DNA of 64,000 nucleotides from a virus: IMG/VR virus record IMGVR_UViG_3300045988_071280, one strand, 5' to 3'. The notes beneath the pieces were generated by a model. It had not been told where the DNA came from. It searched no databases and saw only the letters and a program-made list of their open reading frames with translations. Below, piece by piece: positions 36,434 through 63,788 of the stretch; positions within the stretch are counted from its first letter, which is position 1; the number at the start of each line of letters is the position of its first letter. Position numbers and translations under genes: made by a program.

Positions 36434-39400
36434 CGTATTTTTCTTATATTTTCATATAAGCCAGACTATATCATTAACTTATATTCTATTACCGTCTATA
36501 AGTTACCTCCCGTTTCCATATTTAACAATATGTACTCTACTCATTTATTCTCTAATATATTTCTTATTAGATATATTTTCGATAGTCGTTGAACTTTGAA
36601 TAAATATTTAAATAATATTTAAGCCTTAGCTGCTGATTAACATGTAGTAATTAATATGGACAATACTATTTAGCCTTCCAGCAATTAGAGAGGTTTAATT
36701 TTTCTACATATCACTATGTAGCGGCGCTAGAGGAGTAGTTAACGCCAATTACATCAGTTTTTATCATATCACAGCCTTTGAATGTCCAAGATTCAATAGC
36801 TGGTTTTCCGTTAGCTAAATCCGGAGTAAGATCTAGAATAAATCCAAATGCTTGATCAGGATATTCTATATTTAAAGCCTTATCCGGCATAAAGGTTATC
36901 GTATTACCTTGATATTCATAGCTAACAAAAGTATTACCTACTTTAATACCATCAACCGTTTCACCTACTTTCTTCTTAACACCAGAAGATTTACTATACA
37001 TCAAAGTAGCAGTAGGAGTCCATTTTCCAATTTCATCCATTAAGTTATCACCAACCTGATTCCAAAGTAAAGAGTTACAGATTAATACATAATCATTGCC
37101 AGTTAAATTCTTTGCCTTAGAGGTTAAGAAACTTAATGCTTCTTTGAAGTGTGAAGTAAGTAATTGATCGAAAGAGATTAAGTATGCGTATCTTTCTATT
37201 TGAGGAATAATTCCATCGCCTATATACACTATTTATACTTTATATTACTATAAAGATTAGACTATATCTTTAACTTATCATTAATTTAAATACTTAAATA
37301 AATATCCTTTACAAGTTTTTCCTCTTCCTTTTAAAACTCTTCCACAACCTGGATATTGCTTACTACATTCTCCTACAGTTTTAAAAGTTTCTAATAATTC
37401 TCCATCTAAAGAATATCTTCCGACCATTCTTCCGGTATGAAGATACTTAGAAGATTCTTTATTTGGCATGGCTGGAATTTTTTCTATACTCCATTGATAA
37501 CCTTGCCAAGTTCTATTTAATTTAATTGCACTACTAATACCCTTTTTTCCTAAAGCTCTTTCAGCTTCTGCAAAAGAACTATATTCATTTAAATATTCCC
37601 CAGAAAGGGAATATTGATATACAGGAGTATTTTTTAATTGCTTACATTTAGCTCTAGAATAATTACCTTCTAATTCGTAAGATACATATTTATTATTTAT
37701 CAAATATCCAGCTTTTATTGCTCTAATAACATTTCCTGTTGCAGAATTTAATTCTTTAGCAGCATCAGTTATAGATTGATAAAATTTTTCATAATTTCCA
37801 TCTTTATCATATTGATAAACAGGAATTTTATGTTGATCAATAATAAAGTCTTTTGGATTTACTGATTTAAATTTTTCAGTTGTCCATAGATATTTAGCAC
37901 AAGGATGTTTTGTCATTATAGCAATACTTAATGTTGTATAATATCTATCTACAGCTCTTGAAGCATCTGCAATAGATTTATATTCATTTATATATTCTCC
38001 TTCTAAAGAATATTGATATACAGCTTTAGCATTTACTCCTCTATCTCCCCCATTTCCTCCTAAAGCAGTGTTATACACATCCTTTCTTTTTAAAAATTCT
38101 TCATTAACAATAATTGATTCTAAATAATAAGCATCTTCTTCATTATCAAAAACTTGGATAGTTTTTCTAATAAAGGCTTTTACTCCATATTTATTAACAG
38201 CAGCTTGAAATACTGTTTTACTGAATTTATATGTAGAAGGTTGATTTATAACAACCCCACATCCTAAATACCCATCAAAAATATCTGGATTTTCGGTTTG
38301 ATGTACTCCCACATATATTTTTTTATTAATTGTGTTAGTAGTTAGATATACTATATATTTCATATTTAAATTTTTATAAGTTAATTCCCATTTCCAGATA
38401 AAATCTGTACTCCTTGCGGATAGTCGTTGAACGTTCCTTTTGCGTTACTCAAAGAGCCTACTTATCAAAAGGCTTCGCTGCTGATTGTCTTTAAGTAGCA
38501 GATTAAAGATATTCCAGCAATTAAAGAATTTAATTTATCATACTGTTTCCAGTATGCGACCCATGTTTAACATAGACGTTTGTTAAAAGTCCCAGGTCTC
38601 TGCGTTTGCGGGTCCACGATTGTAGCTTTCCCGTTGGCATCCACGTTACTGCGTGCCCAAAGATCGTGTTTAGCTTTAACTTCTAAGAAATTCTCAATAA
38701 GAGTCTTTTCCATTGAAGTCATAGTAAACAATTTTTCACTTCCTTTAGTTTCCGTATCACTAATTTTCAAGAATACATCTTCATTAGCTAAATAAGCTTG
38801 AGATGCATCAATATCATTTCTATGTAAAGTCAAGTAATTACGATGAACCTCCATATTAGATTGATATTTTGTAGCGTTAGTACTTTATATCACTATAAAG
38901 ATTAGACTATATCTTAATCTTATTATATAAGATCTTCTCTGCTTCGGAATTAAATATTCCTACTCCATATTGGATAGTCGTTGAACGTTCTATATTGTAT
39001 TTAAATACTCATATAGCTTCGCTGCTGATTGTCTTTAAATAAGATGTTCCAGCAATTCAGAGAATGTTTCAATATTTATTACTAAATAAAGGGGCCTACA
39101 ATTTAACCCAAAGTCGTGATAATCAAACGGATGAGCATTTGATAAGAAGTGAGTAGTCATACCCGGCTGACATGCGGAAGTATCCAAATATGACTGATAA
39201 TCATTATCAATCAATCGAACAGTATATTCATAGAATTTATTACTCCTCCAAATTGGACGAGAAGTAACATAACACTGTTGATGTGATTTATCTATTACAA
39301 AAATATCATGTTTATCATAGTATTTTTCCTTAAACAGCATCTTAATTTCTGTCCCTCCAATTCCATCACCTTCGGGAACAGCGTAAAAAGGAATACGTTT

Positions 39401-40907
39401 AATGAACTATTCTATTTAAAGAATTTAGACTATATCATTTACTTATTTATGATATTTAAAGATATAATCCTTATAATATTTATCACCCATCTGAATATTT
39501 TTTAATTTACTAGATGGGATATTGTATTTTTCTCTTACATCTTTTATACTATCTAAAGTCTCTATATAATTTCCAAATGTATCATATATATCAATCGTTA
39601 TTCCTTTAGAATAATATTTATCCGGAATATTTATTACTTCTGTGGTTGATATATAATAATCCTTATACCATCCATTATTATATAATATCACATTCTTAAT
39701 TTTATTCCAAGAATGGAGCTTTATAACCTTCATCACCATCTTACCCTTAAATTGTCCTATATAAACTCCATCTTTATTATATACATGATATATTAAATTC
39801 TTATAATTTGCTCTAGTTTTTGGAATAAATTCATCAACCAATTTATTAGATATATAATACTTATCTAATACCAAAGATTGATTTTTAATAGCTTTATTTA
39901 TATCTAAATCTCCAAGATATTTAATACATTCATCCTTATCTAAGAACTCATTTAATAATTTCCCTTTTTTAGTATATAAATAAATAGTATTATTTAATTT
40001 ATTTAAAGAATATTTAATAACATCTATCTCCGGTTCTAATGACCAATAGGAATTAAGAAATTTAGATTTATTACTTATCGCGAATTGAAATTTTTTAGGA
40101 GATTCTCCATAAAAATCATATGCTTCTAAGGAATAATTCCATTTCTTCTCTAATTCTCCAGTTGTATTAAATTGATATAAAGGAGATATGTTATTTACAC
40201 TAGAACAATAATTATACGTATGATCGGAATTTAAAAAAGTATCATTAACTAATTCTAATTCCTTTTCATATGCCTCTTCTGGAGTATTAAATATATATAA
40301 TATAGTCCTCTCAAAAGCCTTCGTCCCATATTTTTTAACAGCATATTGGAACGGAGTTTTTGGATACATAAAAGTACTTGGTTGATTTATATAAACTCCA
40401 GATCCTAAATACCCATCAAAAATATCCGGATTTTCGGTTTGATGTATTCCGATATAAATTTTATTTAATTCTCCAACTTTAGATTTTAAATTTTTAGTAA
40501 GATATACAATATATTTCATAAGTAATTCAGTTTTTCAATCTTATTTATAAGATTTACAGGTTTCCCTTAGTCGTTGAACACTACTTTCATCAAAGTCATG
40601 CTGCTGATTGTCTCTAGTAGCAGTAAAGATTCCCAGCAATTTAAAGAATTTATTGTGAACCTCATTGATTCACATCCACGTCCCACTCAATAGCAAAAGC
40701 ATCAATACTCTTACGTCCGGGCTTAGGAATATCTTGATAAACCATATTTTCAATTCTCTCAGTTAAAGCTGATACAGTATGTCCGGGACATAAAGATGCA
40801 GCTAAACCTACTCTATGAGTAATTCGTCCCAAGAATTGGGAGAAATCATGAAAAGTTCTTGAGCCATTCATATTGGCTCGATTTGAAATGTATTCTGCTA
40901 CAAACAT
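36298..40907 (-). CDS. major capsid protein-like gene, split into 5 exons by 4 group I introns (joined CDS 1452 nt, 483 aa)
   Basis: Colinear ORF fragments are separated by spacers carrying group I P/Q/R/S cores. The exon sum 240+301+288+487+136 = 1452 nt gives one open frame. The capsid identity is inferred from size, from the position after portal and an acidic scaffold-like gene, and from the strong terminator; I did not confirm it from motifs. Confidence 0.6.
36434..36741 (-). mobile_element. group I intron 4 (ORF-less, 308 nt)
   Basis: P 36678-36686, Q 36629-36638, R 36583-36594, S 36464-36472 (plus-strand coordinates). P1 is GGCGT|TAAC...GCGCC with a U-G pair. P2 hairpin is CTACATA-GTGA-TATGTAG and P9 hairpin is CTTATAT-GAAA-ATATAAG. 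The intron ends ...ATACG. Confidence 0.75.
36742..37228 (-). CDS. capsid gene exon 4
   Basis: Corresponds to track ORF 36714-37229 minus its intron-encoded tail (NYSSSAAT*). The split codon GT|T joins it to exon 5. Confidence 0.7.
37229..38586 (-). mobile_element. group I intron 3 carrying a GIY-YIG homing endonuclease ORF
   Basis: P 38514-38522, Q 38477-38486, R 38421-38432, S 37260-37268. The HEG lies between R and S (P8 position). P2-like hairpin is CATACTG-GAAA-CAGTATG and P9 is CTTTATA-GTAA-TATAAAG. The intron ends AAATAG. The 5' junction is uncertain by about 3 nt. Confidence 0.7.
37281..38363 (-). CDS. intron-encoded GIY-YIG homing endonuclease with four NUMOD1/IENR1-like repeats
   Basis: KYIVYLTTNTINKKIYVGVHQT is the GIY...YIG motif. 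Four repeats of the type VYQYSLEGEYINEYKSIADASRA follow. The ORF lies inside the intron core. Confidence 0.85.
   Translation of the reverse strand: MKYIVYLTTNTINKKIYVGVHQTENPDIFDGYLGCGVVINQPSTYKFSKTVFQAAVNKYGVKAFIRKTIQVFDNEEDAYYLESIIVNEEFLKRKDVYNTALGGNGGDRGVNAKAVYQYSLEGEYINEYKSIADASRAVDRYYTTLSIAIMTKHPCAKYLWTTEKFKSVNPKDFIIDQHKIPVYQYDKDGNYEKFYQSITDAAKELNSATGNVIRAIKAGYLINNKYVSYELEGNYSRAKCKQLKNTPVYQYSLSGEYLNEYSSFAEAERALGKKGISSAIKLNRTWQGYQWSIEKIPAMPNKESSKYLHTGRMVGRYSLDGELLETFKTVGECSKQYPGCGRVLKGRGKTCKGYLFKYLN
38587..38874 (-). CDS. capsid gene exon 3
   Basis: Track ORF 38567-38854 extended upstream to the 3' splice site (ACG|CT) and trimmed at ...RPGT. Phase is 2+285+1. Confidence 0.65.
38875..39105 (-). 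mobile_element. group I intron 2 (ORF-less, 231 nt)
   Basis: P 39049-39057, Q 39021-39030, R 38975-38986, S 38905-38913. P1 is GGGT|TAAATTGTAG-GCCC with a U-G pair. P9 is CTTTATA-GTGA-TATAAAG. The intron ends CTAACG. The split codon T|CT keeps the frame. Confidence 0.75.
39106..39406 (-). CDS. capsid gene exon 2
   Basis: Track ORF 39035-39340 extended upstream to FIKRIPFYAVPEGDGIGGTEIK and trimmed at ...YHDFG. 301 nt, phase 0 in and phase 1 out. Confidence 0.65.
39407..40667 (-). mobile_element. group I intron 1 carrying a GIY-YIG homing endonuclease ORF
   Basis: P 40633-40641, Q 40600-40609, R 40568-40579, S 39428-39436. P1 is GTGAAT|C-AATGA-GGTTCAC with a U-G pair. The HEG lies between R and S. 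The 3' end is placed after G39407 because it is the only in-frame G after the TAG at 39407-39409. Confidence 0.7.
39443..40519 (-). CDS. intron-encoded GIY-YIG homing endonuclease with NUMOD1/IENR1-like repeats
   Basis: KYIVYLTKN...KIYIGIHQTENPDIFDGYLG. Four degenerate repeats follow (LYQFNTTGELEKKW..., IYLYTKKGKLLNEF...). The stop is 6 nt from the S element. Confidence 0.85.
   Translation of the reverse strand: MKYIVYLTKNLKSKVGELNKIYIGIHQTENPDIFDGYLGSGVYINQPSTFMYPKTPFQYAVKKYGTKAFERTILYIFNTPEEAYEKELELVNDTFLNSDHTYNYCSSVNNISPLYQFNTTGELEKKWNYSLEAYDFYGESPKKFQFAISNKSKFLNSYWSLEPEIDVIKYSLNKLNNTIYLYTKKGKLLNEFLDKDECIKYLGDLDINKAIKNQSLVLDKYYISNKLVDEFIPKTRANYKNLIYHVYNKDGVYIGQFKGKMVMKVIKLHSWNKIKNVILYNNGWYKDYYISTTEVINIPDKYYSKGITIDIYDTFGNYIETLDSIKDVREKYNIPSSKLKNIQMGDKYYKDYIFKYHK
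40668..40907 (-). CDS. capsid gene exon 1
   Basis: Track ORF 40662-40907 trimmed by two codons (Q, stop), which belong to the intron P1 loop. Confidence 0.65.
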
Positions 40908-43367: not shown

Positions 43368-44138
43368 TTAAGCGTCTATTGTTAAATATTCTATAACCAT
43401 TCTAGGATTATTATAATCTATATTAACTTGTATACCTCCAATTTGTAGTCCAGTAGAATCTAATGGAATAGCATTAACATTTCCAAAATCCCATAAAAGT
43501 ACTCTTATACTATTTGATTCATTGATATGATATAACTTATTATTTATATATTCTATTGTGAAAATATTAGCTTCTCCCATATTTCCTCCATATATTATAG
43601 GATGATTAATTGGATCAGCATTTCCATTAACGTCTTGTACTACTATTTTAATTGTTGAGTTAGTAGTATCTGTACTTCTTAATATACTTAAATACTTTTT
43701 ATCATTAGTATCTGATACTAAAAGAGTTAATAAACAATTATAAGAATTTTCAGAACTTCCAATAGCAGTAATAGTATATCTAAAAGAAACTCTCCAATTA
43801 TTTTTTCGATTCTCGAATAGATTAGCTATTAATATAGATGAATAATCTTTCATAAACATAGCTCCATAACTATTATGCTGAATTAATCCTAATTCTTGAA
43901 TAAATGAAGTAACAGAAGATGTAGTTGTATTAGATACTCCATCATATAAAAAAATCTGAGATAATATTTTAATTATATCATTATCTGCTGGAAAATCATA
44001 TAAACTATAACTACTAAGTGGAGTAGGATCGGCTCCAGAAAGAATAGCTCCATCTTTATGTATAAAATTCATATTTGTACTACTAGGAGATCCTAATCTA
44101 TTAGCAGCATCTTTAAGAGTTAAAAAATCCTTACTCAT
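43368..44138 (-). CDS. fibre-tip/receptor-binding candidate, 256 aa, with shared N-terminal motif
   Basis: The N-terminal 55 aa (MSKDFLTLKDAANRLG...ADPTPLSSYSLYDF) are homologous to the N-terminus of the 351-aa ORF at 45591-46646. Confidence 0.55.
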   Translation of the reverse strand: MSKDFLTLKDAANRLGSPSSTNMNFIHKDGAILSGADPTPLSSYSLYDFPADNDIIKILSQIFLYDGVSNTTTSSVTSFIQELGLIQHNSYGAMFMKDYSSILIANLFENRKNNWRVSFRYTITAIGSSENSYNCLLTLLVSDTNDKKYLSILRSTDTTNSTIKIVVQDVNGNADPINHPIIYGGNMGEANIFTIEYINNKLYHINESNSIRVLLWDFGNVNAIPLDSTGLQIGGIQVNIDYNNPRMVIEYLTIDA

Positions 44139-44142
44139 ATTT

Positions 44143-44457
44143 CTAAGTTTTAGTTCCGAATACTATCCAATCTATAGTTTTTGGATCTTTTCCTCCACTA
44201 TACAATTCTATATATGTCTTTGTTACACCCATAACATTACAAGAATATCCAGCTTCGTTATTTCCCCGAAATGAACATACAGCAGTTCTTGGTATATAAT
44301 CTCCTTGTAACGATACTCTAGTTTCAGTATGTCCCTCACATAAAGTACTTCCCATCTCGAATACTAAAGGACCTAATGTCATAACTACATGACCTGGTCT
44401 AGTTATATCATGTTGAGTCTCTAATATATTATCTAATTCCGTTATAAACTCCGCCAT
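44143..44457 (-). CDS. small lectin-like paralogue 3 (104 aa)
   Basis: Starts MAEFITELD. Shares ...NNEAGY...GGKDPKT..W.VFG with the two neighbouring paralogues. Confidence 0.6.
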   Translation of the reverse strand: MAEFITELDNILETQHDITRPGHVVMTLGPLVFEMGSTLCEGHTETRVSLQGDYIPRTAVCSFRGNNEAGYSCNVMGVTKTYIELYSGGKDPKTIDWIVFGTKT

Positions 44458-44774
44458 AATTGATTATTTACTGATAATCCTATTATTAAAAATGTTACAG
44501 TTTTATCATCTTTCCCTCCAAGAGAAAATGTTACTCCTGTAGTATTTAAACTAGATATACTTATAGCATATCCTTGTTCATCATTATTTTTTAATGAAGC
44601 CATTCCGGTAATTATCCCACTAAATCCTTTTAATGGTACAGAAACAACATCATACCCAGGACAAGTAGTAGTTCCATAAGCGATTCGTAGTCCTTTATAA
44701 TTTATATATGTAACAGGATCTACCATTTCCACGGAATAGTCCTCTAAATTATCTTCTGTTAAAAATTCAGCCAT
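44442..44774 (-). CDS. small lectin-like paralogue 2 (110 aa)
   Basis: Starts MAEFLTEDN. Contains ...NNDEQGY...GGKDDKT..FLIIG. Overlaps the next paralogue by 16 nt. Confidence 0.6.
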   Translation of the reverse strand: MAEFLTEDNLEDYSVEMVDPVTYINYKGLRIAYGTTTCPGYDVVSVPLKGFSGIITGMASLKNNDEQGYAISISSLNTTGVTFSLGGKDDKTVTFLIIGLSVNNQLWRSL

Positions 44775-44776
44775 AT

Positions 44777-45070
44777 TTAATCACTTTCTCCTATTATTAA
44801 ATAATAAAATTCTTTAGGATCTTTCCCTCCGAGTATGAAAGTAGCCGAGGTATTAGTATAAGAGGATAAATTTACTGTATAACCTGCTTCATTATTATTT
44901 TTTAAACAACAGAATACTCCATATACTGATTTAAATCCGGAATAAGTAATTGTTATACCTCTACTAGTTATAGAAGAATATCCTCCAACCATTCTGAGTC
45001 CTAAACCTTCAATCCCTCCAGATCCAGTAGAATCTAAAGCTCTATCGTCTACAGTTAGATATTCTGCCAT
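44777..45070 (-). CDS. small lectin-like paralogue 1 (97 aa)
   Basis: Starts MAEYLTVDD. Contains ...NNNEAGY...GGKDPKE.YYLIIG. Confidence 0.6.
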   Translation of the reverse strand: MAEYLTVDDRALDSTGSGGIEGLGLRMVGGYSSITSRGITITYSGFKSVYGVFCCLKNNNEAGYTVNLSSYTNTSATFILGGKDPKEFYYLIIGESD

Positions 45071-45071
45071 A

Positions 45072-45212
45072 TTATATTATTTTAGCTCTTTGTTTTAATC
45101 GATGTATATCATCTTCTAAAGATTGGATTTTGTCTTTTATTATATTTAATTCTAAGGAATCTTTTTTGATAAAGATTCTATGTAAAAATGTTTTAATTTT
45201 ATTTAATAACAT
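45072..45212 (-). CDS. small helical protein, 46 aa (not in the ORF track)
   Basis: MLLNKIKTFLHRIFIKKDSLELNIIKDKIQSLEDDIHRLKQRAKII*. The stop is 1 nt before the next ATG (45070). Confidence 0.35.
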   Translation of the reverse strand: MLLNKIKTFLHRIFIKKDSLELNIIKDKIQSLEDDIHRLKQRAKII

Positions 45213-45222
45213 ATTAATTAAA

Positions 45223-45560
45223 TTAATATCCTATAGCTAACCAAAAAAATTCACTTCTGGTATTTACTGGAGCAGTTCCTACTAATTCCACTGTTAACGA
45301 GGAATTTGTGAAGGATTTAATAGTTAAAACATCTCCTTTAGACCAATAACCATAATAGTTATTAGGAGTGAGTTGCACCATACAGCATTTAGTAGGAAAT
45401 GTTTTTGGATATGATACTGTTGCAGTCATACTTCCAGTATTAAAGTTACTAAGTCCTGACTGTATCAATATCCCCCCCCCTGTAAGGTATCTGCTTTTGT
45501 AGGAGCTGTTTTAGAGAATAAGGTATTTAAATTATCTTTGGTTATAAATTCCTTTGCCAT
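45223..45560 (-). CDS. H-type-lectin-like paralogue 4, interrupted by a G9 tract (in frame only with G10 or a -1 shift)
   Basis: The ATG at 45560 gives MAKEFITKDNLNTLFSKTAPTKADTLQGGGY* (stop 45465-45467). The body (track ORF 45223-45468) lies in the -1 frame and ends ...SEFFWLAIGY. With one extra G the two parts form a 112-aa protein the same size as its paralogues. Confidence 0.65.
45472..45480 (-). repeat. homopolymeric G9 tract (C9 on the plus strand) inside a coding region
   Basis: Counted directly as tat-ccccccccc-tgt. Very unexpected in such AT-rich DNA. Confidence 0.9.
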
Positions 45561-45590
45561 TTATTAATATTTTATTTAATTATTATATAT

Positions 45591-46646
45591 TTATGTTAAT
45601 TTTTTATATGTATTTCCACTTGTATTTAATTCTGTCCACCATATATCTCCTTTATAATTAATTAGTTCTGGCTGTATTCCAACATTTCCAAAATTCTTTA
45701 CTATAGTACCGCTATATATCTCACATAAACAAGGATATTTAAGAGTAGCAGATTGAGATACATTTATACACTTATTGCCTCCGTATATTAAGCATCTAAC
45801 AAAAAATTCAGTCATCGGAGTGTATGATAAAGAAAGACTTGATGTTTGAGAAGAATGATAATCCCATGTACTACTAGTCCTTATATAGCTATTATTAGTC
45901 TCTGCGTTAGCAAATGTAGCATAATTACCATTAGATTCTTTAGTAAGAACTTGAGAATACATAGTAGGACTAACATCCGCTCCTTTAGTATAAGAATATG
46001 AATCATTAGTCTCATTTACATATAACCTAGCTACACATCTATACGTTCCTCCAACATCAAAATACGCATAATGATAAGTGCCAACCTTCTCTACAAAAGA
46101 AAAAGTTCTCGGATATTTAAAATTACTACCAGTATAAGCAGCTATAGTAGTAAGAGTATTATTAGATGTATTTAATTTATATATTCTAAATTGCGTATTA
46201 GCATTTGAAGAAGATCCACTACAACAAAATAGATAATTACCTGATAAAGCCGAAGTAGCTATATTATACCAATATCCAGTAGAACCACTTAGAGATATAG
46301 ATGTGGTAACCATTGTACCATTAACCACAACTCCGAAAGTGATATTTTTAAAATCAGAAGCTGCATAAACAAATGGAATTCTTTCATCATCAGGATCTGC
46401 TACAACACCTATACGACAATAGACACTTCTGGAAGAAAGAAAATCGTTTAGAACCTGCATATTATCTACTTTCCTATTTACATCGTCATACGCAACGAAA
46501 TCAGTATTAGCATAGCTAGTAAGTAAATCAGGATCCGCCTTTAATAAAAGAATATTTTGCTTTGATATATATTCAGTACCTCCAGTTACTGGTATACCTT
46601 GTAATTTCTCTATTGCCTGGTCAATTGTTATAAATTCCTTACTCAT
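45591..46646 (-). CDS. fibre-tip/receptor-binding candidate, 351 aa, with shared N-terminal motif
   Basis: Starts MSKEFITIDQAIEKLQG...ADPDLLTSYANTDF, homologous to the N-terminus of the 256-aa ORF. The remainder is S/T/N/Y-rich and beta-type. Confidence 0.6.
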   Translation of the reverse strand: MSKEFITIDQAIEKLQGIPVTGGTEYISKQNILLLKADPDLLTSYANTDFVAYDDVNRKVDNMQVLNDFLSSRSVYCRIGVVADPDDERIPFVYAASDFKNITFGVVVNGTMVTTSISLSGSTGYWYNIATSALSGNYLFCCSGSSSNANTQFRIYKLNTSNNTLTTIAAYTGSNFKYPRTFSFVEKVGTYHYAYFDVGGTYRCVARLYVNETNDSYSYTKGADVSPTMYSQVLTKESNGNYATFANAETNNSYIRTSSTWDYHSSQTSSLSLSYTPMTEFFVRCLIYGGNKCINVSQSATLKYPCLCEIYSGTIVKNFGNVGIQPELINYKGDIWWTELNTSGNTYKKLT

Positions 46647-46701
46647 AACAATTCCAATAACGAGATTTTATTTTTTAATAATCTATTTAGATTCTTTTCA
46701 T

Positions 46702-46710
46702 CCCCCCCCC
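46702..46710 (-). repeat. homopolymeric G9 tract (C9 on the plus strand), intergenic
   Basis: Counted directly as cat-ccccccccc-tat. Lies 34 nt after the fibre stop (46744) and 56 nt upstream of the ATG at 46646. Confidence 0.9.
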
Positions 46711-46743
46711 TATTTATAGAGGATTTTAAAGATATTTTATATA

Positions 46744-49119
46744 TCATATTTTCCATACTTTCTTTAAATTACTTATTTCTTGTTCTAAATATTTTATTTT
46801 TTCCTCAAATTCTTTCTGAGATTTAATTCTTAAATTATATTCCTCTTTTAAAGCCTCTTGAAGAAGGATTGTATATCTCTCATATGAAAATGTTAAAATA
46901 GAATTATTTATTTCTCTTACAAGCTCTGGATAATATTTATTCCAGTATTGAGCTGAGGTTCCTATACATAAATCATTCTCGTCCATCCAATTATATTTAA
47001 ATCCGGGAGAATTTAGTACTAGAGGTAATATATTAGATAAATTCTCTATATTATGTTTATATCTAATATCAGATACAGAAGTTGTCCCAGCTCCGTTTGT
47101 ATGAACAGTATGTTTTGTGAAAGTGATTTCATCAAGACTGTTAATTTTAGCCATTATTGATTCAGGTGTTTCTCCTGAAGAATTCATTAATGTATCTACA
47201 TCGGCTCTTAAACTAAGAATATCTTGTTGTAATGGAACTAAATCAGATAGATAAGATATTTCATTATCTCCCCATGTAATCCTTCTATTAAAAGTGCTAG
47301 GTATATTAAATACATTATTAGTTCCCTCCCCATTTGGAATCCATACTCGAAGATCGGTATCCATACCTAATATTGACCAGTTTATTTCTTTTGTAGAAGA
47401 TGCAGATAATTTAAGCATTCCATTTATCTCACAATCTCCTTTTAATCTTATGTACCTACAATATACTTTTTCAGAATAGACTCCGTATATATCAGAACTT
47501 AATAAAGTATCAAAATATATAGGATCTCTAATACCTTCTAAACATCCCAATCTTAATCTCGGAGATAAGGGTGCGACTTCATCATTTATACCTAAATAAG
47601 ATTTATCTAAACATTCTCCAGTTTCGGGGTTTGTTTCTCTAATACTATGTAAATACAAAGAATCCCAATTTCTAAAATATAAAACATCTCCAACTTCCGG
47701 AAGTTTTTCTAACTCTCTCTTCCTTTCCTCATCAGTAGTTTCATCTAAATACTCTTCTAAATCCTTATCTAAAACATTTTTATCAATAGTAGCAACTATA
47801 TTACATCCAGAAATTGTAAAAGTATCCTCATCATAAATCCATTCTAATTCTTCAATCTTAATCCTACCTTTAGATATTATTTTAGTAGTAGGAATTAAAG
47901 TGCTTACATCAATCTCTTCCTCAGAATCTTCTGGTATTTCTACATTATATCCATAAGAATACTTCTCAAAATATAAATAATCTCCTATTTTTATATTATA
48001 AATCCCATTTATAGATATCTCGTATTTAATAGGAATAACTTCCTCTGTTTCTCCTCCAGATTCTTCTTCATTAGGAACTATTTCAGATATACTAGATACA
48101 ATTCCTTGTGGTTCAAAGAAATAATTAGTATTTAATCCTTTAGTAATAAAATCCTTCTCTTTAGATGAACCATCCCCAAACGGGCCTTTAGCAGAATTTC
48201 TCACTATTAAATTATCTACTTCTAAAGTCCATTCGGAATTTATATTCGCTAATCTATATCCAGCCATTCCTTCTATGAAATAATCTGATATTATCCCAGA
48301 ATTAAGAACAGCTTCATCTTTTACATACATATTCCCATCTACTTCAAAATTATAGTTATAAGTTGGAGGATATCCTATAGATATATAATTCCCATTTATA
48401 TATGTAATACCTTCTTTAGAATTAAATTTAATACCAGAAGTATTAGTATCTAAAGTTACTCCACTATTATTAACTATTATATCTAAATAATCATTCTGAT
48501 TTTTTATCTGCATCCCATTTGATCCTATTACATTAAAATCTCTAGGTCCATGAAGATTATTTTCTAAATTAATAGTTACTTTATCCTTAACTATTCCTCC
48601 GGAATTAAGACTTAAATATAATTCTACTAAAGTCCCATTATCATTATAATAATGAACTTTATCATCTGAATTAAAATAAACAAAATCAATAGGTAAAATT
48701 GCAGTATTATCTTGATTATTAATAATAACTTTTAAATTTCTTTGAGCAGTTCTAATCTGTTCTAGAGTAAGATCTTGATTATAATTAATAGCTAAATAAT
48801 CCTCAGAATTCTCTACATCATCTCTTTTAGATAGTACTGGATATAATATTCCATTTATTTGAAAATAAATAGCATCTTCCGATTCCACAAAATACCATCC
48901 ATCCGCAGTTCCTATATCATTTTTATTCTGAACAATATTTATACTCTTATCATTACCATCAGTCTTAGATATCTTTCCGTTAGAAATAAGATCCAAGAAA
49001 GCATTTCCGAATCTAACTTTTACATTACCTTTTCCATTAAGAATTATATCAGTATCAGCAGATCCAACCATTAAATATGGCTTTCCTAGAATCTTTTCTA
49101 CTTTAATAAGTTCTCCCAT
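46744..49119 (-). CDS. tail fibre (791 aa) with C-terminal S74-type intramolecular chaperone domain
   Basis: The C-terminus SDIRYKHNIENL...FKYNWMDENDLCIGTSAQYW...FSYERYTILLQEALKE matches the auto-cleaving chaperone (endosialidase CIMCD) pattern S-D-x-R-x-K...G..AQ. Confidence 0.75.
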   Translation of the reverse strand: MGELIKVEKILGKPYLMVGSADTDIILNGKGNVKVRFGNAFLDLISNGKISKTDGNDKSINIVQNKNDIGTADGWYFVESEDAIYFQINGILYPVLSKRDDVENSEDYLAINYNQDLTLEQIRTAQRNLKVIINNQDNTAILPIDFVYFNSDDKVHYYNDNGTLVELYLSLNSGGIVKDKVTINLENNLHGPRDFNVIGSNGMQIKNQNDYLDIIVNNSGVTLDTNTSGIKFNSKEGITYINGNYISIGYPPTYNYNFEVDGNMYVKDEAVLNSGIISDYFIEGMAGYRLANINSEWTLEVDNLIVRNSAKGPFGDGSSKEKDFITKGLNTNYFFEPQGIVSSISEIVPNEEESGGETEEVIPIKYEISINGIYNIKIGDYLYFEKYSYGYNVEIPEDSEEEIDVSTLIPTTKIISKGRIKIEELEWIYDEDTFTISGCNIVATIDKNVLDKDLEEYLDETTDEERKRELEKLPEVGDVLYFRNWDSLYLHSIRETNPETGECLDKSYLGINDEVAPLSPRLRLGCLEGIRDPIYFDTLLSSDIYGVYSEKVYCRYIRLKGDCEINGMLKLSASSTKEINWSILGMDTDLRVWIPNGEGTNNVFNIPSTFNRRITWGDNEISYLSDLVPLQQDILSLRADVDTLMNSSGETPESIMAKINSLDEITFTKHTVHTNGAGTTSVSDIRYKHNIENLSNILPLVLNSPGFKYNWMDENDLCIGTSAQYWNKYYPELVREINNSILTFSYERYTILLQEALKEEYNLRIKSQKEFEEKIKYLEQEISNLKKVWKI

Positions 49120-49187: not shown

Positions 49188-49210
49188 AAAAAAAAGAAGA
49201 GAATCTCTTC
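49188..49210 (-). terminator. intrinsic terminator
   Basis: Minus strand reads GAAGAG-ATT-CTCTTC followed by T8, between the stop at 49231 and the fibre start. Confidence 0.5.
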
Positions 49211-49230
49211 TCTTCTTTCATTTTTGATAG

Positions 49231-59637: not shown

Positions 59638-60437
59638 TACTTTCTACAATTACAAGAACTAAATCCAGTAGAGTATTTAAGGTAATCATTATTACAAAAT
59701 CCTCCACAAACCTGAATCTCTTCTATAATTCTCTCGGCTTCATAATAACTACATTTATCTATTAATCTATGGATTAATTCTAAAGCTATAAATACCATAT
59801 TCCTATCTCTAAATACTTGAGAAATATTATTATCATTTTTTATATTACATCTAGTATATAATTTATTATAATAGATATATTTTAATTTATTCTCGTAACA
59901 ATATTCTAAATTCCCTAAAAGAAATGTCTCTTCCTCAATCCCTATTATATTAGAATTAGACTGATTATTATATAAATCCATTATAGATATCTTCTTTTCA
60001 GTATAACTTCCGGATATAATAGTTATTTCATAAATCTCTACTTCTCCATTTGAAAGTTCTTTCGCGGAATAGAATATTTCTCCTTCCATATTTAAACTAG
60101 ATGGAGATACTCCATGAACCCATTCGTAATTAGGTAACGCTAAATGATCTATTATATGCCATCCGTCTATTTTAGTAGAATAGTTTAATTTATAATCAGT
60201 ATATTCCTGATCTGAATGACATACATAATAAAAATCTGATACTTTAGGATCATCTATAGTATTTAGAGTAATTAAATCAATAAATACAATATCTTTTGTT
60301 CTTAAATAATTAGCGGATATCTGAGATACTTCTGGATAGATACTACTAGTACTTATACCAGTAGTATCCTTTAATGTAAATCCAGATATTCCGTATTCAG
60401 TTAATGAAATACTTAAATTTAATGAAATATTTTTCAT
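59637..60437 (-). CDS. hypothetical protein, 266 aa, Cys-rich C-terminus
   Basis: ORF overlapping the portal stop by 4 nt and the next ATG by 1 nt (TAATG). Confidence 0.65.
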   Translation of the reverse strand: MKNISLNLSISLTEYGISGFTLKDTTGISTSSIYPEVSQISANYLRTKDIVFIDLITLNTIDDPKVSDFYYVCHSDQEYTDYKLNYSTKIDGWHIIDHLALPNYEWVHGVSPSSLNMEGEIFYSAKELSNGEVEIYEITIISGSYTEKKISIMDLYNNQSNSNIIGIEEETFLLGNLEYCYENKLKYIYYNKLYTRCNIKNDNNISQVFRDRNMVFIALELIHRLIDKCSYYEAERIIEEIQVCGGFCNNDYLKYSTGFSSCNCRK

Positions 60438-61465
60438 TTTCCAAAATTTACTTCGTTATTTCTAGGATTATTATCAAATAATTGTGCCCATTCAATATTA
60501 GCTTTCTTTTCTTCGATCTTATTCCTCTCTTTATCATTCTCATCTTTAGATTTAGCAGTAAACCATTTAATAGAGGAATCTTGTTCTTTTTGTTTTAGAT
60601 TTTCTACTTCTTTAATAGATTTTTGCAATTCCTCTTGAAGTTGCTGTATCTGTTGTTGAGCTTCTTTAAGAGCTTGATCATATTGCTGTATTTGTTGTTG
60701 AGCTTGTTGTATTTGATTATTCTCCTCTTTTTGACGTTTAATTGCATCTAATGTTATTTGTTTATATTCTGTGATACTCTTACATCCAATAGCTTGTACT
60801 AATACATCAGCTGTTAATTGTCCTGATTTAATTAACTCAAGATTATATGCTTTTATAGTTTCTAAGTCTTGTAGAGCGGATTGAGTATCAGCAATATTTA
60901 TATCAAAGTCTGTTACTGTATAATGTTCTGGAAGTGCTGTGAAAATAGCTTTTTGTTTCTCTCCAAGAATTATAGTTCCTTGAAATCCATCTTTATATAC
61001 TACTTTAGCTATATTTAAACTATCTAAGAATAATTCTCTTAAAGCTAATGCCATGTTAGAGAAGTATATTTTTGTGACAATTAGTGATTGATTAATTCCG
61101 GTTCTAACATTAGTAACAGCATCTCTGGTTTCAACTCCTCCAATAGCTTCTCTAAATGCTCCTGTTATATTAGATGCAAGTTGCTCTATTTTTTCTATAG
61201 CTAGATCTAGAGCTTGCATGGATTGGTAGGATAAACTCATATCATATGTATTAAATACAGCATTTGGCATAGATTGTCCAGCCTCACTTTGGGAAGTATC
61301 TAATGCTGCGAATCCTTGTTTTACATACGCCATGAATTTAAGTAATCTGTTTGTTTCATCTTCCTCGTCTAAGAATGTGGGGATTTTAGAGAAATCTACT
61401 GCAATACCTTTTGTTCCACTTACTGCAATGGCATTATTTCGAAGGAAAAATAGTATATTATACAT
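60434..61465 (-). CDS. portal gene exon 2
   Basis: An in-frame TAA at 61469-61471 forces the 3' splice site to lie after G61466 (or G61463). The exon then begins (M)YNILFFLRNNAIAVSG. Confidence 0.65.
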   Translation of the reverse strand: MYNILFFLRNNAIAVSGTKGIAVDFSKIPTFLDEEDETNRLLKFMAYVKQGFAALDTSQSEAGQSMPNAVFNTYDMSLSYQSMQALDLAIEKIEQLASNITGAFREAIGGVETRDAVTNVRTGINQSLIVTKIYFSNMALALRELFLDSLNIAKVVYKDGFQGTIILGEKQKAIFTALPEHYTVTDFDINIADTQSALQDLETIKAYNLELIKSGQLTADVLVQAIGCKSITEYKQITLDAIKRQKEENNQIQQAQQQIQQYDQALKEAQQQIQQLQEELQKSIKEVENLKQKEQDSSIKWFTAKSKDENDKERNKIEEKKANIEWAQLFDNNPRNNEVNFGK

Positions 61466-63788
61466 CATTTATGTTCAATGTGGTTCGTTACTCCACATCC
61501 GGGAATTTACCCAGCTATATGTTTCCATATAGATCAGACTATATCATACATAATTGATCTAGTATAAGGTCTAAAAGATTTTTAGAAAAACATTCAGTTG
61601 ATGTTTCATGTTCCCAATGTTTAGGCAAATATAAATTATTTTTAATTAGTCTTTTTAATTTAGTTTCTAATGTTTTACAATCTATAGGATTTTCAAAAGA
61701 AATAGTTTTAATTACTTCTATTTCATAGCCAAGATTTTTATACTCTTTAAATCTTCTAATTTGTCCGTTTTCTAAAGTATAAGATATTCCCAATTTATAA
61801 AAACTTTCTTCTTCATTATATAATCGTATAAGATAAAATGTATCACTACATTTCCAGTTTTTACATTTTGGACATCCCCTACCCATAAATATATAATCAT
61901 TATCTATAGATACTTCTCCATGTTCTGGACATATTAAAATAGATTTACCTCCGTGTCTACTAGTTTCAGTAATTTTAAAATCATACTTGTCTCCATAAAT
62001 AAATTTAAGTTGATTGTAAAAATACTGTTTTCTATCAACCGCTGCCTCAATCGTAGGCATAAATCCTTTAGATATCAAATTTCCAGGAGTTACAGAAACT
62101 AAGCCAAATTGTGTTTCAAACAGCATTTTTGAGTTCATTCCACTATATTCAGATGCAGGCTTTATATTATTATATATATGCTCTTGTTTTTCTTTCAATA
62201 GATTCATGAAATATTCAGTTTTGTTTATGGCTGCCTTTATTCCAGGAGTATAAAGTAAAACTTGTTTTGCTGTATTAAACGACATTACTCCATATTTGTC
62301 CTTTACTAAAATTGGTTTAGAAAGTCCTTTAAACCTACTTACCACTTCGATATCTTTATTATATAAAGACTCTACTTCCTTTTTAAATTGTTCTTCTGTG
62401 TACTTCATTCTTTTTCAAATTACTTATTAAATTATGTTTCCGTGCTTCGAACTCACTTGAGTCCTATAATTAGTCGTTGAACCTTCCTTTAAAATATTTA
62501 AAGGCTTGGCTGCTGATTAGCATAGATAAATTATCTTTAGCTTCCCAGCAATTCTCGGAATTTACCCAGGACCTGTATATTAATCCTGTAAATCTGCTGT
62601 AGCTAATACTAAACTAAACGGGATATTTTGTCTCGTTGTCATAAATAACCCATTAACAGATAATGTACATTCCTTAGGATTATCCATAGATCTAACTACA
62701 TTTAAATCTACATCCCTAACAATATAAATATCACTAGCAATTTTAACTACAGAGTATCTATGCATTACACCATCTTTTCCTGTCTCTATATATTCTACCT
62801 CATATACAGTAATTAATCTATTATTATATCCATACATTCCAGTATTCCCATCCCAAACAGGAGTTACCTCTAGTCCCCCTAATATTCCGGTAGCAAATTC
62901 CGAATCCTCTGTAGTAGCAGCATTTATTGGTCCGGTAGATCTTATTATATACTTCTGATTATCAGTATAATATGCCTTCTCTAATTCATCTCTTAACTTA
63001 GTTTTATCAGCTTCTGTTAATTCTGAATTATATTTAGATAGGATCTGATCTACTGTCATGTAATATCTACAAACAGCTCTAGGAGATTTATTTAAATAAT
63101 AACTATTAGGATTTTTCTCCACAAAAGTATTAATAGGATTTAATCCTTCTATATCCACATTATTCCCACTTCTAGAAGGTTGTGTTTTAAAATAAAGTGT
63201 TCCGGAGATTAATAAATCCGTCATTAATAATCTAGCTTTTATATCTAAATCAATACTTTTAGATTGAGATAAATATGTTATAATATTCTGTGCTGCTATT
63301 TCATATTCAGAAATAAAATTTTTATCTATATCTTCTTTTAATAACTGTAGAGACTTTTCAGTTAGAGGATCTTTTGTTATAGGAGTATTCTGATCTCCGA
63401 ATTTAGAGAGAATAGTATTATATAAATTACTCATATATAATTCCCTAACTCCATCTAATACTTTAAGCTGTCTCTCTCTATTTATTAAAGATAATGTCTT
63501 TTGATCTTTACATGTAATTTGCATATTTAATGGAGCATCTAGAAACTTCCCAACTAAATAATCTATGTGCTTTTTTATAAGTGGTATAAATTGTATTTGT
63601 GTCGGAGTTCCTATTCCATAATTTTCTTCGAAATGCTTATATTGATCTAAATCCATCTTCCCGTGATAGTAGTTATAAGCTTTTCTTATTGCTACTTTAT
63701 CATATACGAGATCAGAAATAGCTTGGTTGGCCTTCTGAATTTGATAGTCTTTTGATCCTCGTTTGTACTCGACGCTCATCCAAATCAA
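60434..63788 (-). CDS. portal-like protein gene, split by one group I intron (about 745 aa when joined)
   Basis: Two colinear ORFs (402 and 344 aa) are separated by a 1.1-kb spacer with a group I core. The size, the AIRKAYNYYHG-type N-terminal region and the Q-rich coiled-coil C-terminus fit a portal. The identity is inferred, not confirmed. Confidence 0.6.
61466..62582 (-). mobile_element. group I intron carrying a homing-endonuclease-like ORF
   Basis: P 62544-62553, Q 62509-62518, R 62471-62482, S 61537-61545. P1 is CAGGAT|TAATATACAG-GTCCTG with a U-G pair, extendable by ATTTA/TAAAT. P9 is CTATATG-GAAA-CATATAG, followed by an extra hairpin ATGTGG/CCACAT. The intron starts with TAA, which is the track ORF stop. 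Confidence 0.75.
61539..62408 (-). CDS. intron-encoded putative homing endonuclease: zinc ribbon plus GIY-YIG-superfamily (T5orf172-like) C-terminal domain
   Basis: CPEHG...GCPKC zinc-ribbon-like motif, then TFYLIRLYNEEESFYKLGISYT...RRFKEY...E.KLKRLI...TECF. Located between R and S. The TAG stop lies inside the S element. Confidence 0.55.
   Translation of the reverse strand: MKYTEEQFKKEVESLYNKDIEVVSRFKGLSKPILVKDKYGVMSFNTAKQVLLYTPGIKAAINKTEYFMNLLKEKQEHIYNNIKPASEYSGMNSKMLFETQFGLVSVTPGNLISKGFMPTIEAAVDRKQYFYNQLKFIYGDKYDFKITETSRHGGKSILICPEHGEVSIDNDYIFMGRGCPKCKNWKCSDTFYLIRLYNEEESFYKLGISYTLENGQIRRFKEYKNLGYEIEVIKTISFENPIDCKTLETKLKRLIKNNLYLPKHWEHETSTECFSKNLLDLILDQLCMI
62583..63788 (-). CDS. portal gene exon 1
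   Basis: Track ORF 62580-63788 without its stop codon. The last codons ...ADLQD end at the U of the P1 U-G pair. Confidence 0.65.

What the first reader, a model, noticed from the sequence alone, without database searches (positions are those of the whole stretch)
45223..45560. G9 homopolymer splits a lectin-like fibre-tip gene; G10 or a -1 slip restores a full-length paralogue
From the ATG at 45560 the frame reads MAKEFITKDNLNTLFSKTAPTKADTLQGGGY and stops at 45465-45467. The body of the gene (SGLSNFNTGSMTATVSYPKTFPTKCCMVQLTPNN...SEFFWLAIGY) continues in the -1 frame with no ATG of its own; the track had to use TTG. One extra G gives a 112-aa product with the family N-terminal motif and the same size as its 97-110-aa paralogues. 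A run of nine G/C in DNA this AT-rich is not expected by chance. This is the classic architecture of a slipped-strand phase-variable (contingency) gene, here in a phage receptor-binding module. Alternatively it is a -1 frameshift or transcriptional-slippage site on G GGG GGA.
Basis: partly seen in the sequence, partly recalled or inferred. Interest (0 to 1): 0.75.

Follow-up and report, generated by a model that had tools for sequence, protein, structure and literature searches.

The report
PolyG on/off switch in phage fibre-tip gene
A run of nine G's splits a small tail-fibre tip gene of an uncultivated gut phage, and in about 40 related phage genomes the run is 5 to 14 G's long and puts the gene in or out of frame, so it looks like a hypermutable on/off switch of a kind already shown in Campylobacter phages.

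Summary
On the minus strand, ATG 45560 opens a 31-codon ORF that stops at 45467-45465. G9 lies at 45480-45472. The 81-codon body (45468-45223) follows in the -1 frame, and one extra G gives a 112-aa protein.

The body is a tail-fibre tip domain. It matches Pfam Gp53-like_C (E 8e-13), and its predicted fold matches the R-pyocin fibre foot and phage AP22 gp53.

- Among 33 relatives with a readable frame, the run is 5-14 G long. Eleven are in frame, 13 and 9 are in the other two frames.
- Contigs with identical flanks carry G10 and G12.
- A/T runs of 6-8 in the same module keep their length in all but a few relatives.
- Both halves are under purifying selection (dN/dS about 0.1-0.25).
- A homologue at 45% identity keeps a G10 at the same junction, although GGG is only 10% of Gly codons here.

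A fixed programmed frameshift is not supported, because all three frames occur and no stimulatory structure was found. Leaky slippage in the G9 state is not excluded. A one-off assembly error is unlikely, because the same off-state peptide is encoded on 9 other contigs.

Not noted in this finding: a second G9 (46702-46710) lies 1.2 kb upstream. Relatives join that tract's left flank directly to the tip body, so the runs are also cassette junctions.

Verdict: a new member of a known kind. Switching within one population is untested.

The parts
45223..45560 (-). The whole tip-protein gene. It is 112 codons when the run is in frame; in this window it is off (G9, one G short).
   Evidence: In-frame homologues of 110-113 aa: and loci L005, L007, L020, L021, L025-L031.
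45465..45560 (-). 5' piece: a 31-codon ORF with the N-terminal MA(K)EF[IL]T segment shared with the neighbouring genes. It ends GGGY-stop because of the frame shift.
   Evidence: dN/dS 0.14-0.26 against divergent alleles. This exact peptide is encoded on 9 other contigs.
45472..45480 (-). PolyG tract A (G9). It encodes the Gly-Gly-Gly at the start of the tip domain and is the proposed hypermutable switch.
   Evidence: Length 5-14 in relatives. A G10 at the same junction in a homologue of 45% identity.
45223..45468 (-). 3' piece: the 81-codon body, a Gp53-like_C tail-fibre tip domain in the -1 frame with no ATG of its own.
   Evidence: Pfam PF21882, E 8.4e-13, 49.1 bits against a cut-off of 24.9. 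PHROG tail-fibre families. AF2 model pLDDT 81. Foldseek top hits are the R1/R2 pyocin fibre foot and AP22 gp53. dN/dS 0.08-0.10.
46702..46710 (-). PolyG tract B (G9), between the 791-aa fibre gene and the 351-aa gene. It is variable in relatives and forms the left junction of the deletion-type arrangement.
   Evidence: L022, L045 and L023 join this tract's left flank directly to the tip body.
46643..46756 (-). A 37-codon ORF that contains tract B. It is not conserved as an ORF in relatives. Its 5' half serves as the leader of the tip gene in the deletion-type relatives.
   Evidence: (P0063, P0069).
45591..46646 (-). A 351-aa gene with an MSKEFIT N-terminus and no family match. It fills a variable cassette slot bounded by the two G9 runs.
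   Evidence: In window-like relatives the homologue is 89-98%, 63-71% or about 40-45% identical, or absent.
46744..49119 (-). A 791-aa tail fibre with a C-terminal Peptidase_S74 intramolecular chaperone domain.
44143..45070 (-). Three small paralogues of the tip gene (97, 110 and 104 aa), each starting MAEF/Y[IL]T.
44514..44519 (-). The Gly-Gly site (GGAGGG) in the 110-aa paralogue. It is interrupted and stable here. It is G6 in most relatives and has expanded to G8-G10 in three, shifting the frame in two of them.
43368..44138 (-). A 256-aa gene whose MSKDFLT N-terminal region resembles that of the 351-aa gene.

Best explanation
The locus is one gene for a small accessory tail-fibre tip protein. 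The protein has about 27 N-terminal residues carrying the EF[IL]T segment shared by six neighbouring genes, then a Gly-Gly-Gly junction, then an 83-residue receptor-binding domain like that of the R-pyocin fibre foot and AP22 gp53.

The glycine junction is encoded by a G homopolymer. Replication slippage adds or removes G's far more often than bases are substituted, so the gene moves among three frames. One frame (a run of 7, 10 or 13 G counting the G of CAG, or 9 G after CAA) gives the full protein. The other two stop after about 31-38 codons and leave the tip domain untranslated.

In this window the run is G9, so the gene is off and needs one more G. The inferred consequence is that phage populations are mixtures of virions with and without this tip protein, which hedges against hosts whose surface receptors vary.

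Shown here: the tract, its length polymorphism, the three frame states, selection on both halves, and the fold of the body. Inferred: slippage as the cause, reversibility, attachment through the N-terminal segment, and any effect on host range.
For: - Anatomy.
- Run length among unique relatives: G5 x4, G7 x1, G8 x6, G9 x15, G10 x6, G11 x4, G12 x3, G14 x1. Frames: 11 on, 13 and 9 off.
- L001 (G12) and L005 (G10) have 0 differences in 323 flanking nt. L017, L018 and L021 (G8, G9, G10) differ by 1-3 nt. L007 (G10) and L011 (G5) differ by 1 nt. Of 13 pairs with 0-1 substitutions, 8 differ in run length.
- Control: 13 A/T runs of 6-8 nt in the module keep their length in all but a few relatives.
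- dN/dS is 0.08-0.10 for the body and 0.14-0.26 for the N-terminal piece between divergent alleles that are both off. The wrong frames give about 1.
- About 65 protein clusters are full length with QGG, QGGG or QGGGG at the junction.
- In alleles with CAA before the run, no ATG, GTG or TTG follows the tract (it reads ATA TTA ATT CAG; the next ATG seen in the sequences is the MTATV methionine), so the whole body cannot be made on its own.
- The one lineage locked at G5 (L006/L013) carries a further frame disruption in the body.
- The homopolymer is kept at 45% protein identity (G10 in L048), and a tandem paralogue there also follows a polyG. GGG is only 10% of Gly codons.
- Three contigs end exactly inside the tract. 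This is the assembly break expected from mixed lengths, though poor sequencing through G runs would give the same result.
- Tip-domain identity.
- Precedent: hypermutable polyG tracts in Campylobacter phages that create phenotypic diversity (Sorensen et al. 2021, Cell Rep 35:109214, title as cited in PMC10877375 and PMC12823448; that they lie in receptor-binding-protein genes is from my own knowledge of the abstract), and contingency loci in T2/T4 (PMC12633550).
Against: - No reads were available, so co-existing lengths within one population, the defining behaviour of phase variation, are not shown. All the evidence is between samples.
- In the window's own allele group the state is almost uniform: G9 in the window, L002, L014, L016, L049, L050 and on 9 contigs carrying the exact off peptide, and G8 in L015. 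No in-frame copy of this exact allele was found. This could mean that off is selected, or that G9 is expressed by slippage.
- Only a third of relatives are in frame, which is what neutral drift among frames would also give.
- The function of the N-terminal segment and the host are unknown.
- Illumina consensus at G9-G12 has some error.
Confidence: 0.72

Rival explanations
1. Recoding. In the G9 (and G12) state the full protein is made from the out-of-frame gene. Either ribosomes slip -1 on G GGG GGG, or the RNA polymerase adds a G on the run. The split arrangement would then be the working form of the gene, giving a short and a long product in a set ratio.
For: The run is a possible slippery sequence, and the zero-frame stop lies two codons after it. 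The window's allele group is consistently G9 in at least 6 assemblies, and the same off peptide is on 9 contigs. Dulem virus 41 has G12, the same frame offset. Long homopolymers are known to slip during transcription (general knowledge).
Against: Relatives fall in all three frames: 11 in frame, 13 needing -1 nt, 9 needing +1 nt. No single frameshift direction is therefore conserved. Many in-frame alleles exist. The 92 nt downstream do not fold better than shuffles (z -0.77). G5 and G7-G8 off alleles are too short for efficient slippage.
Confidence: 0.13
2. Sequencing or assembly error. The true run in this genome is in frame (G10 or G7), and G9 is a homopolymer miscall.
For: Homopolymers of 9 or more G are error-prone on several platforms. 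Three contigs break inside the tract.
Against: The same allele with G9 was assembled independently in L002, L014, L016, L049 and L050, and the exact 31-aa off product is called on 9 contigs. Short runs that are not error-prone (G5, G7, G8) are also out of frame. Lengths span 5-14. A/T runs of 6-8 keep their length in all but a few relatives.
Confidence: 0.07
3. Decaying pseudogene. The tip gene was inactivated by a frameshift and is being lost.
For: Two thirds of relatives are out of frame. The G5 lineage L006/L013 has a second disruption. Relatives show deletions in the module.
Against: dN/dS is 0.08-0.10 in the body between two off alleles with dS about 0.7, and the wrong frames give about 1. 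The body ORF is intact in nearly all off alleles. In-frame alleles are scattered among near-identical off alleles. The homopolymer itself is kept against codon bias.
Confidence: 0.05

Closest known systems
Hypermutable polyG tracts in receptor-binding-protein genes of Campylobacter Fletchervirus phages (Sorensen et al. 2021, Cell Rep 35:109214; cited in PMC10877375 and PMC12823448; paper not held, details from my own knowledge of the abstract)
   Same: A G homopolymer of about 7-11 inside the coding sequence of a phage receptor-binding protein. Length changes switch the protein on and off. More than one tract lies in the receptor-binding module. The phage genome is AT-rich.
   Different: The proteins are unrelated (here a 112-aa gp53/pyocin-foot-like tip protein). 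The phage is uncultivated and from the gut, and its host is unknown. Evidence here is between metagenome assemblies only, not from sequenced stocks and plaque phenotypes. Here the tract sits exactly at the junction between the N-terminal segment and the tip domain, and it also marks cassette boundaries.
Bacterial contingency loci (polyG/C tracts in surface-structure genes of Campylobacter, Haemophilus, Neisseria) and putative contingency loci of T2/T4 and other phages (Gomez, Barrick and Waters 2025, PMC12633550)
   Same: A simple-sequence repeat early in an ORF, frameshifts by polymerase slippage that are expected to be reversible, and a bet-hedging rationale.
   Different: The T-even loci are mostly short A/T runs spread over all gene classes. 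Here only two long G runs occur in 64 kb, both in the receptor-binding module, and both run against a strong AT and codon bias.
Foot domain of R1/R2-type pyocin fibres (PDB 6CXB, 6CL5, 6CT8, 6CL6) and tail fibre gp53 of Acinetobacter phage AP22 (PDB 4MTM; Pfam PF21882 Gp53-like_C)
   Same: The predicted fold of the body (Foldseek E 1e-5 to 2e-4, TM about 0.6) and a Pfam match above the cut-off. In those proteins this is the distal, receptor-binding end of a fibre.
   Different: In those proteins the domain ends a long fibre. Here it is a free-standing 112-aa protein with a short N-terminal segment, in an array of paralogues. No ligand is known.
Programmed -1 frameshift of tail assembly chaperones (lambda G/GT type)
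   Same: Two overlapping ORFs in a tail module joined at a slippery run. The long product needs a -1 shift.
   Different: In that system the frame relation and the slippery heptamer are conserved among relatives. Here the frame relation varies freely and a third of relatives are simply in frame.
Other switches of phage tail-fibre specificity: invertible segments (Mu G, P1 C) and diversity-generating retroelements (mentioned for gut phages in PMC12823448 and PMC12386605)
   Same: They produce mixed receptor specificities within one phage population.
   Different: Those systems need a dedicated recombinase or reverse transcriptase. Here no enzyme is needed, only a homopolymer.

Membership tests
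Contingency locus (phase variation by slipped-strand mispairing) | A simple-sequence repeat long enough to slip (homopolymer of about 7 or more) inside the ORF or its promoter | tested here: met
   G9 at 45480-45472 inside the ORF, 27 codons from the ATG.
Contingency locus (phase variation by slipped-strand mispairing) | Repeat length is polymorphic among otherwise near-identical genomes, so it changes much faster than point mutation | tested here: met
   Lengths 5-14. Of 13 pairs with 0-1 flanking substitutions, 8 differ in length. G12 and G10 occur with identical flanks. Control A/T runs keep their length in all but a few relatives.
Contingency locus (phase variation by slipped-strand mispairing) | Length changes move an otherwise intact, selected ORF in and out of frame | tested here: met
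   11 on and 22 off. The body is intact in nearly all off alleles. dN/dS is 0.08-0.26.
Contingency locus (phase variation by slipped-strand mispairing) | Several lengths co-exist within one clonal population, and switching is reversible | not testable with these tools
   No reads are available. The only indirect hints are three contigs that end inside the tract and on and off alleles interleaved among near-identical sequences.
Contingency locus (phase variation by slipped-strand mispairing) | The on and off states differ in phenotype (virion composition, host range) | not testable with these tools
   The phage is uncultivated. No host was found in 185,579 species genomes.
Programmed -1 ribosomal frameshift or transcriptional-slippage recoding site | The out-of-frame arrangement and the direction of the shift are conserved among relatives | tested here: not met
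   Frames 0, +1 and +2 occur in 11, 13 and 9 relatives.
Programmed -1 ribosomal frameshift or transcriptional-slippage recoding site | A stimulatory RNA structure lies downstream of the slippery site | tested here: not met
   The 92 nt downstream fold at -15.3 kcal/mol, z -0.77 against shuffles.
Programmed -1 ribosomal frameshift or transcriptional-slippage recoding site | The fused product is detectable from an out-of-frame template | not testable with these tools
   This needs proteomics or a reporter.
Gp53-like_C tail-fibre tip domain (Pfam PF21882) | A score above Pfam's gathering threshold over the whole domain | tested here: met
   49.1 bits against 24.9. Residues 29-112 match profile positions 4-84 of 84.
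Gp53-like_C tail-fibre tip domain (Pfam PF21882) | A fold like the solved members | tested here: met
   AF2 model pLDDT 81. 4MTM at E 1.7e-4 and the R-pyocin fibre foot at E 1e-5. Sequence-only searches of the PDB found nothing.
Crassvirales (crAss-like phages) | crAss-type capsid or other hallmark proteins | tested here: inconclusive
   The only signal is a weak precomputed Crass_capsid hit in relative L023. No such Pfam hit was found in the window. The portal fragment matches only unannotated faecal phage records at 41-43%.

The most novel reading that the evidence does not exclude
The G runs may be built-in junctions of a two-level diversification system as well as on/off switches. Each tip or receptor-binding body follows a short N-terminal leader and a polyG. 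Recombination or misalignment between polyG runs would then insert, delete or swap whole cassettes, such as the 1.23-kb segment between the two G9 runs that carries the 351-aa gene. The same polyG-bounded cassette has moved between two otherwise unrelated gut phage lineages (about 93 kb and about 160 kb). In the off state, the 31-aa N-terminal peptide could still occupy the docking site.
Probability: 0.25. Interest if true: 0.72.

Novelty: new member of a known kind. Interest (0 to 1): 0.55.

Why it matters
Gut bacteria vary their surfaces by phase variation, and it is an open question how lytic gut phages persist alongside them. A phage-side contingency switch in a receptor-binding tip protein is a concrete candidate answer that can be tested. 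This one is kept in two phage lineages and against codon bias.

The locus comes with a ready natural experiment. Dozens of public metagenomes carry the same allele with different run lengths, so read-level counts could measure switching rates and selection in vivo.

It also matters for annotation. In the genome records and gene calls examined here, the gene is listed as two hypothetical ORFs or as a truncated one.

Tried and rejected
- The first AF2 model, built from close homologues only, was unusable (pLDDT 50). A second alignment with distant homologues and paralogues gave pLDDT 81.
- Sequence-only searches of the PDB with the protein and with a profile gave only chance hits to subtilisin and antibodies.
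- The search for a host or prophage copy in one genome per species found nothing. There are no tRNAs in the window.
- The test for crAss-like affiliation was inconclusive.
- The sigma-70 promoter scan found fewer sites than shuffles and says nothing about tract B.
- The 37-codon ORF around tract B was considered as a real gene or a coupling ORF. This was rejected because its frame and end are not conserved in L002, L014 and L015.
- Independent translation of the body from the ATG that follows the tract in Dulem-type alleles was considered. It was rejected as a general mechanism because the window-type alleles have ATA there, and the CAA alleles have no start codon directly after the tract.
- The sequence to the right of tract B resembles the 3' end of the Dulem-type fibre gene only over about the last 25 nt, so an insertion scar is plausible but not shown.
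- The Sorensen 2021 paper could not be read, as it is not held.

Full report
**1. The observation**

Read on the minus strand, the ATG at 45560 opens MAKEFITKDNLNTLFSKTAPTKADTLQGGGY and stops at TGA 45467-45465. Nine G's occupy 45480-45472. The next ORF (45468-45223; first start codon TTG; 81 codons, LIQSGLSNFNTG...EFFWLAIGY) lies in the -1 frame. One extra G joins the two into a 112-codon gene.

The window is 28.5% G+C and has only two G/C runs longer than five bases. Both are G9 on the minus strand: this one and another at 46702-46710. Dinucleotide-preserving shuffles give 0.08 such runs per window. GGG is 10% of the glycine codons in the long ORFs, and none of their 75 Gly-Gly runs is all GGG.

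**2. What the gene encodes**

- The fused protein matches Pfam Gp53-like_C, the C-terminal domain of a tail fibre, over residues 29-112 (E 8.4e-13, 49.1 bits against a cut-off of 24.9). It also matches PHROG tail-fibre families.
- An AlphaFold model built with distant homologues and paralogues reached pLDDT 81.
- The model's best matches among solved structures are the distal foot of R1/R2-type pyocin fibres (E 1e-5 to 6e-5) and fibre gp53 of Acinetobacter phage AP22 (E 1.7e-4). Snail and coral lectins appear further down the list. 'Lectin-like fibre tip' is therefore a fair description.
- The three small genes downstream (97, 110 and 104 aa) are paralogues over their full length (hhalign probability 91%, E 9e-7; alignment).
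- Six consecutive genes start with M-(A/S)-(K)-(E/D)-(F/Y)-(I/L)-T.
- Upstream lie a 791-aa and a 2144-aa fibre protein, each with a Peptidase_S74 chaperone domain. This is a receptor-binding module.

**3. Relatives**

Only one GenBank phage matches at the DNA level. It is Dulem virus 41 from lemur faeces (92.9 kb, circular), at 88% identity over 1.3 kb. There the gene is also annotated as two CDSs, and the run is G12, the same frame offset as G9.

Four searches together gave about 40 distinct contigs, nearly all from human gut metagenomes:
- exact-flank pattern scans of IMG/VR and of metagenome contigs;
- a tblastn-confirmed scan;
- look-ups of database proteins.

Run lengths are G5 x4, G7 x1, G8 x6, G9 x15, G10 x6, G11 x4, G12 x3 and G14 x1. 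Of 33 contigs with a readable frame, 11 are in frame, 13 are in one wrong frame and 9 are in the other. When the preceding Gln codon is CAA instead of CAG, G9 is the in-frame length.

**4. The run changes faster than anything around it**

- L001 (G12) and L005 (G10) are identical at all 323 flanking positions compared.
- L017, L018 and L021 (G8, G9, G10) differ from them by 1-3 bases.
- L007 (G10) and L011 (G5) differ by one base.
- Of 13 pairs with at most one flanking substitution, 8 differ in run length.
- As a control, 13 A/T runs of 6-8 bases in the same module keep their length in all but a few relatives. The variation is therefore not generic homopolymer noise.
- Short runs that are not error-prone (G5, G7, G8) are also out of frame.
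- The exact 31-aa off-state product of the window is called on nine other contigs. One of them (L049, 163.6 kb) has G9 at both tracts, like the window.

A one-off assembly error is therefore unlikely.

**5. The gene is alive**

Between divergent alleles that are both off in their assemblies (dS about 0.6-0.7), dN/dS is 0.08-0.10 for the body and 0.14-0.26 for the N-terminal piece. The same DNA read in the wrong frames gives about 1.

The protein database holds about 65 clusters of full-length 110-113-aa proteins with QGG, QGGG or QGGGG at the junction. It also holds about 35 clusters of split or truncated calls.

In the CAA alleles no ATG, GTG or TTG follows the run, which reads ATA TTA ATT CAG. 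The next ATG seen in the sequences is the MTATV methionine, where gene callers start 68-aa products. The whole body therefore cannot be made alone.

The one lineage whose run has shrunk to G5 and also carries a second disruption in the body (L006/L013) looks like what happens when the switch is lost. That is a single event.

**6. The homopolymer itself is conserved**

A homologue of only 45% identity (P0103, locus L048) has a G10 at the same junction. The paralogue just upstream of it also begins after a polyG, at the contig end. More distant homologues show that the two glycines belong to the conserved start of the domain (...PGG-V/L-I-I-Q-W/S-G). The tract therefore grew out of obligatory glycine codons. 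Three contigs end exactly inside the tract.

**7. Mechanism**

The best explanation is a contingency locus. Slippage at the run during replication toggles the tip protein on and off, so a population carries virions with and without it.

A fixed programmed frameshift does not fit, because the direction of the required shift is not conserved and nothing downstream folds unusually well.

Low-level transcriptional or ribosomal slippage on a G9-G12 run cannot be excluded. It deserves attention because the window's own allele group is nearly always G9.

Co-existence of lengths within one population, reversibility and phenotype are inferred, not shown.

**8. Beyond the finding**

*Tract B (46702-46710).* It lies between the 791-aa fibre gene and the 351-aa gene, in a 37-codon ORF that is not conserved. 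Its sequence varies: G9 here, G7AGAGGGAG in L002 and L015, and G10AGGGAG in L014.

*Deletion-type arrangement.* Three relatives join the left flank of tract B directly to the right flank of tract A. This removes the 351-aa gene and the N-terminal piece.
- L022 is 98% identical to the window on both sides and has a merged G14.
- L045 has G9 at the junction.
- L023 and L024 have GGT-G12 and a different leader.

*The cassette slot.* The slot filled by the 351-aa gene holds proteins that are 89-98%, 63-71% or about 40-45% identical, or nothing, in window-like genomes. The cassette of the 351-aa gene plus the tip gene is shared with the otherwise unrelated Dulem-like lineage of about 93 kb.

*Other polyG sites in relatives.* The Gly-Gly site of the 110-aa paralogue is G6 in most relatives and has expanded to G8-G10 in three, shifting the frame in two of them. 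In the window it is the interrupted GGAGGG. Another EF[IL]T gene in L006/L013 has an N-terminal G8 that is out of frame.

PolyG after a short N-terminal leader is thus a recurring design in this module, and the runs coincide with cassette boundaries.

**9. Comparison and novelty**

The closest known system is the set of hypermutable polyG tracts in Campylobacter Fletchervirus phages (Sorensen et al. 2021). That paper is cited in PMC10877375 and PMC12823448 but was not readable here. That the tracts lie in receptor-binding-protein genes is from my own knowledge of the abstract. A 2025 preprint extends contingency loci to T2/T4 and other phages (PMC12633550).

The present case works the same way, with an unrelated protein in uncultivated gut phages. 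The literature searches found no description of it.

It is a new member of a known kind. The role of the runs as cassette junctions is a possible new variant that needs long-read evidence.

Noticed in passing
window 46702-46710 (minus strand), within the 37-codon ORF 46756-46643: A second G9 run lies 1.2 kb upstream, between the 791-aa fibre gene and the 351-aa gene. It is the only other G/C run longer than 5 in the 64 kb. Relatives have G7AGAGGGAG, G10AGGGAG or GGGAG7AGAG there. The ORF around it is not conserved.
   Followed up: partly
L022 6030-6075; L045 about 2984-3010; L023 6060-6100 (compare window 46710 and 45472): Relatives 98% identical to the window join the left flank of tract B directly to the right flank of tract A (merged G14, G9, or GGT-G12). 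They lack the 351-aa gene and the N-terminal piece. The tip body then follows a different short leader (MENMIYKISLKSSINRGGGG... or MAGNKEIEVEDF...).
   Followed up: yes
window 44514-44519 (GGAGGG in the 110-aa paralogue); L014, L017, L046: The Gly-Gly site of the 110-aa paralogue is G6 in 24 loci. It has expanded to G8 in L014 (preceded by T; in frame, one extra Gly), to G8 in L017 and to G10 in L046 (both frameshifted and truncated). A second paralogue is therefore acquiring the same kind of switch.
   Followed up: yes
L013 (reverse strand) about 6870-7000; also L006 and L012: Another small gene starts MSYEFLTRSQAASKLSTSIT, then has a G8, then continues out of frame as EGSEFITKTEAINLG.... It is a further EF[IL]T gene with an N-terminal polyG and is off at G8. 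It is absent from the window.
   Followed up: partly
window 43368-46646 (six consecutive genes): Six neighbouring genes (351, 112, 97, 110, 104 and 256 aa) all begin M-(A/S)-(K)-(E/D)-(F/Y)-(I/L)-T. This may be a shared docking segment for alternative tip proteins. Its function is unknown.
   Followed up: partly
window 45591-46646 and loci L001-L047: The cassette of the 351-aa gene plus the tip gene is shared between window-like phages (contigs of 108-166 kb) and Dulem-like phages of about 93 kb, which otherwise share almost nothing in this region. Within window-like genomes the 351-aa slot holds very different proteins, and four relatives lack the 97/110/104/256-aa array.
   Followed up: partly
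window 60434-63788 (minus strand): The portal gene appears to be in two pieces. ORF 62580-63788 matches portal profile positions 22-293, and ORF 60434-61468 matches positions 440-769. An HNH/endonuclease ORF (61539-62408) lies between them, which suggests an intron or a homing-endonuclease insertion.
   Followed up: no
window 37281-38363 and 39443-40519 (minus strand): Two homing-endonuclease ORFs (PHROG 314), only about 33% identical to each other, sit among short ORFs of 81-108 aa. This may be another structural gene broken up by mobile introns.
   Followed up: no
L039 position 1, L042 position 1, L048 position 1 (contig ends): Three independent contigs end exactly inside the polyG tract that precedes a tip-domain body. 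This is the assembly break expected from mixed run lengths or from poor reads through the run.
   Followed up: partly
window 49192-49219: A near-perfect 12-bp inverted repeat followed by a T run (terminator-like on both strands) lies just upstream of the 791-aa fibre gene.
   Followed up: no
window 45072-45212 (minus strand): A 46-codon ORF directly after the tip gene is conserved at the same position in relatives (L013, L022, L023, L049).
   Followed up: no
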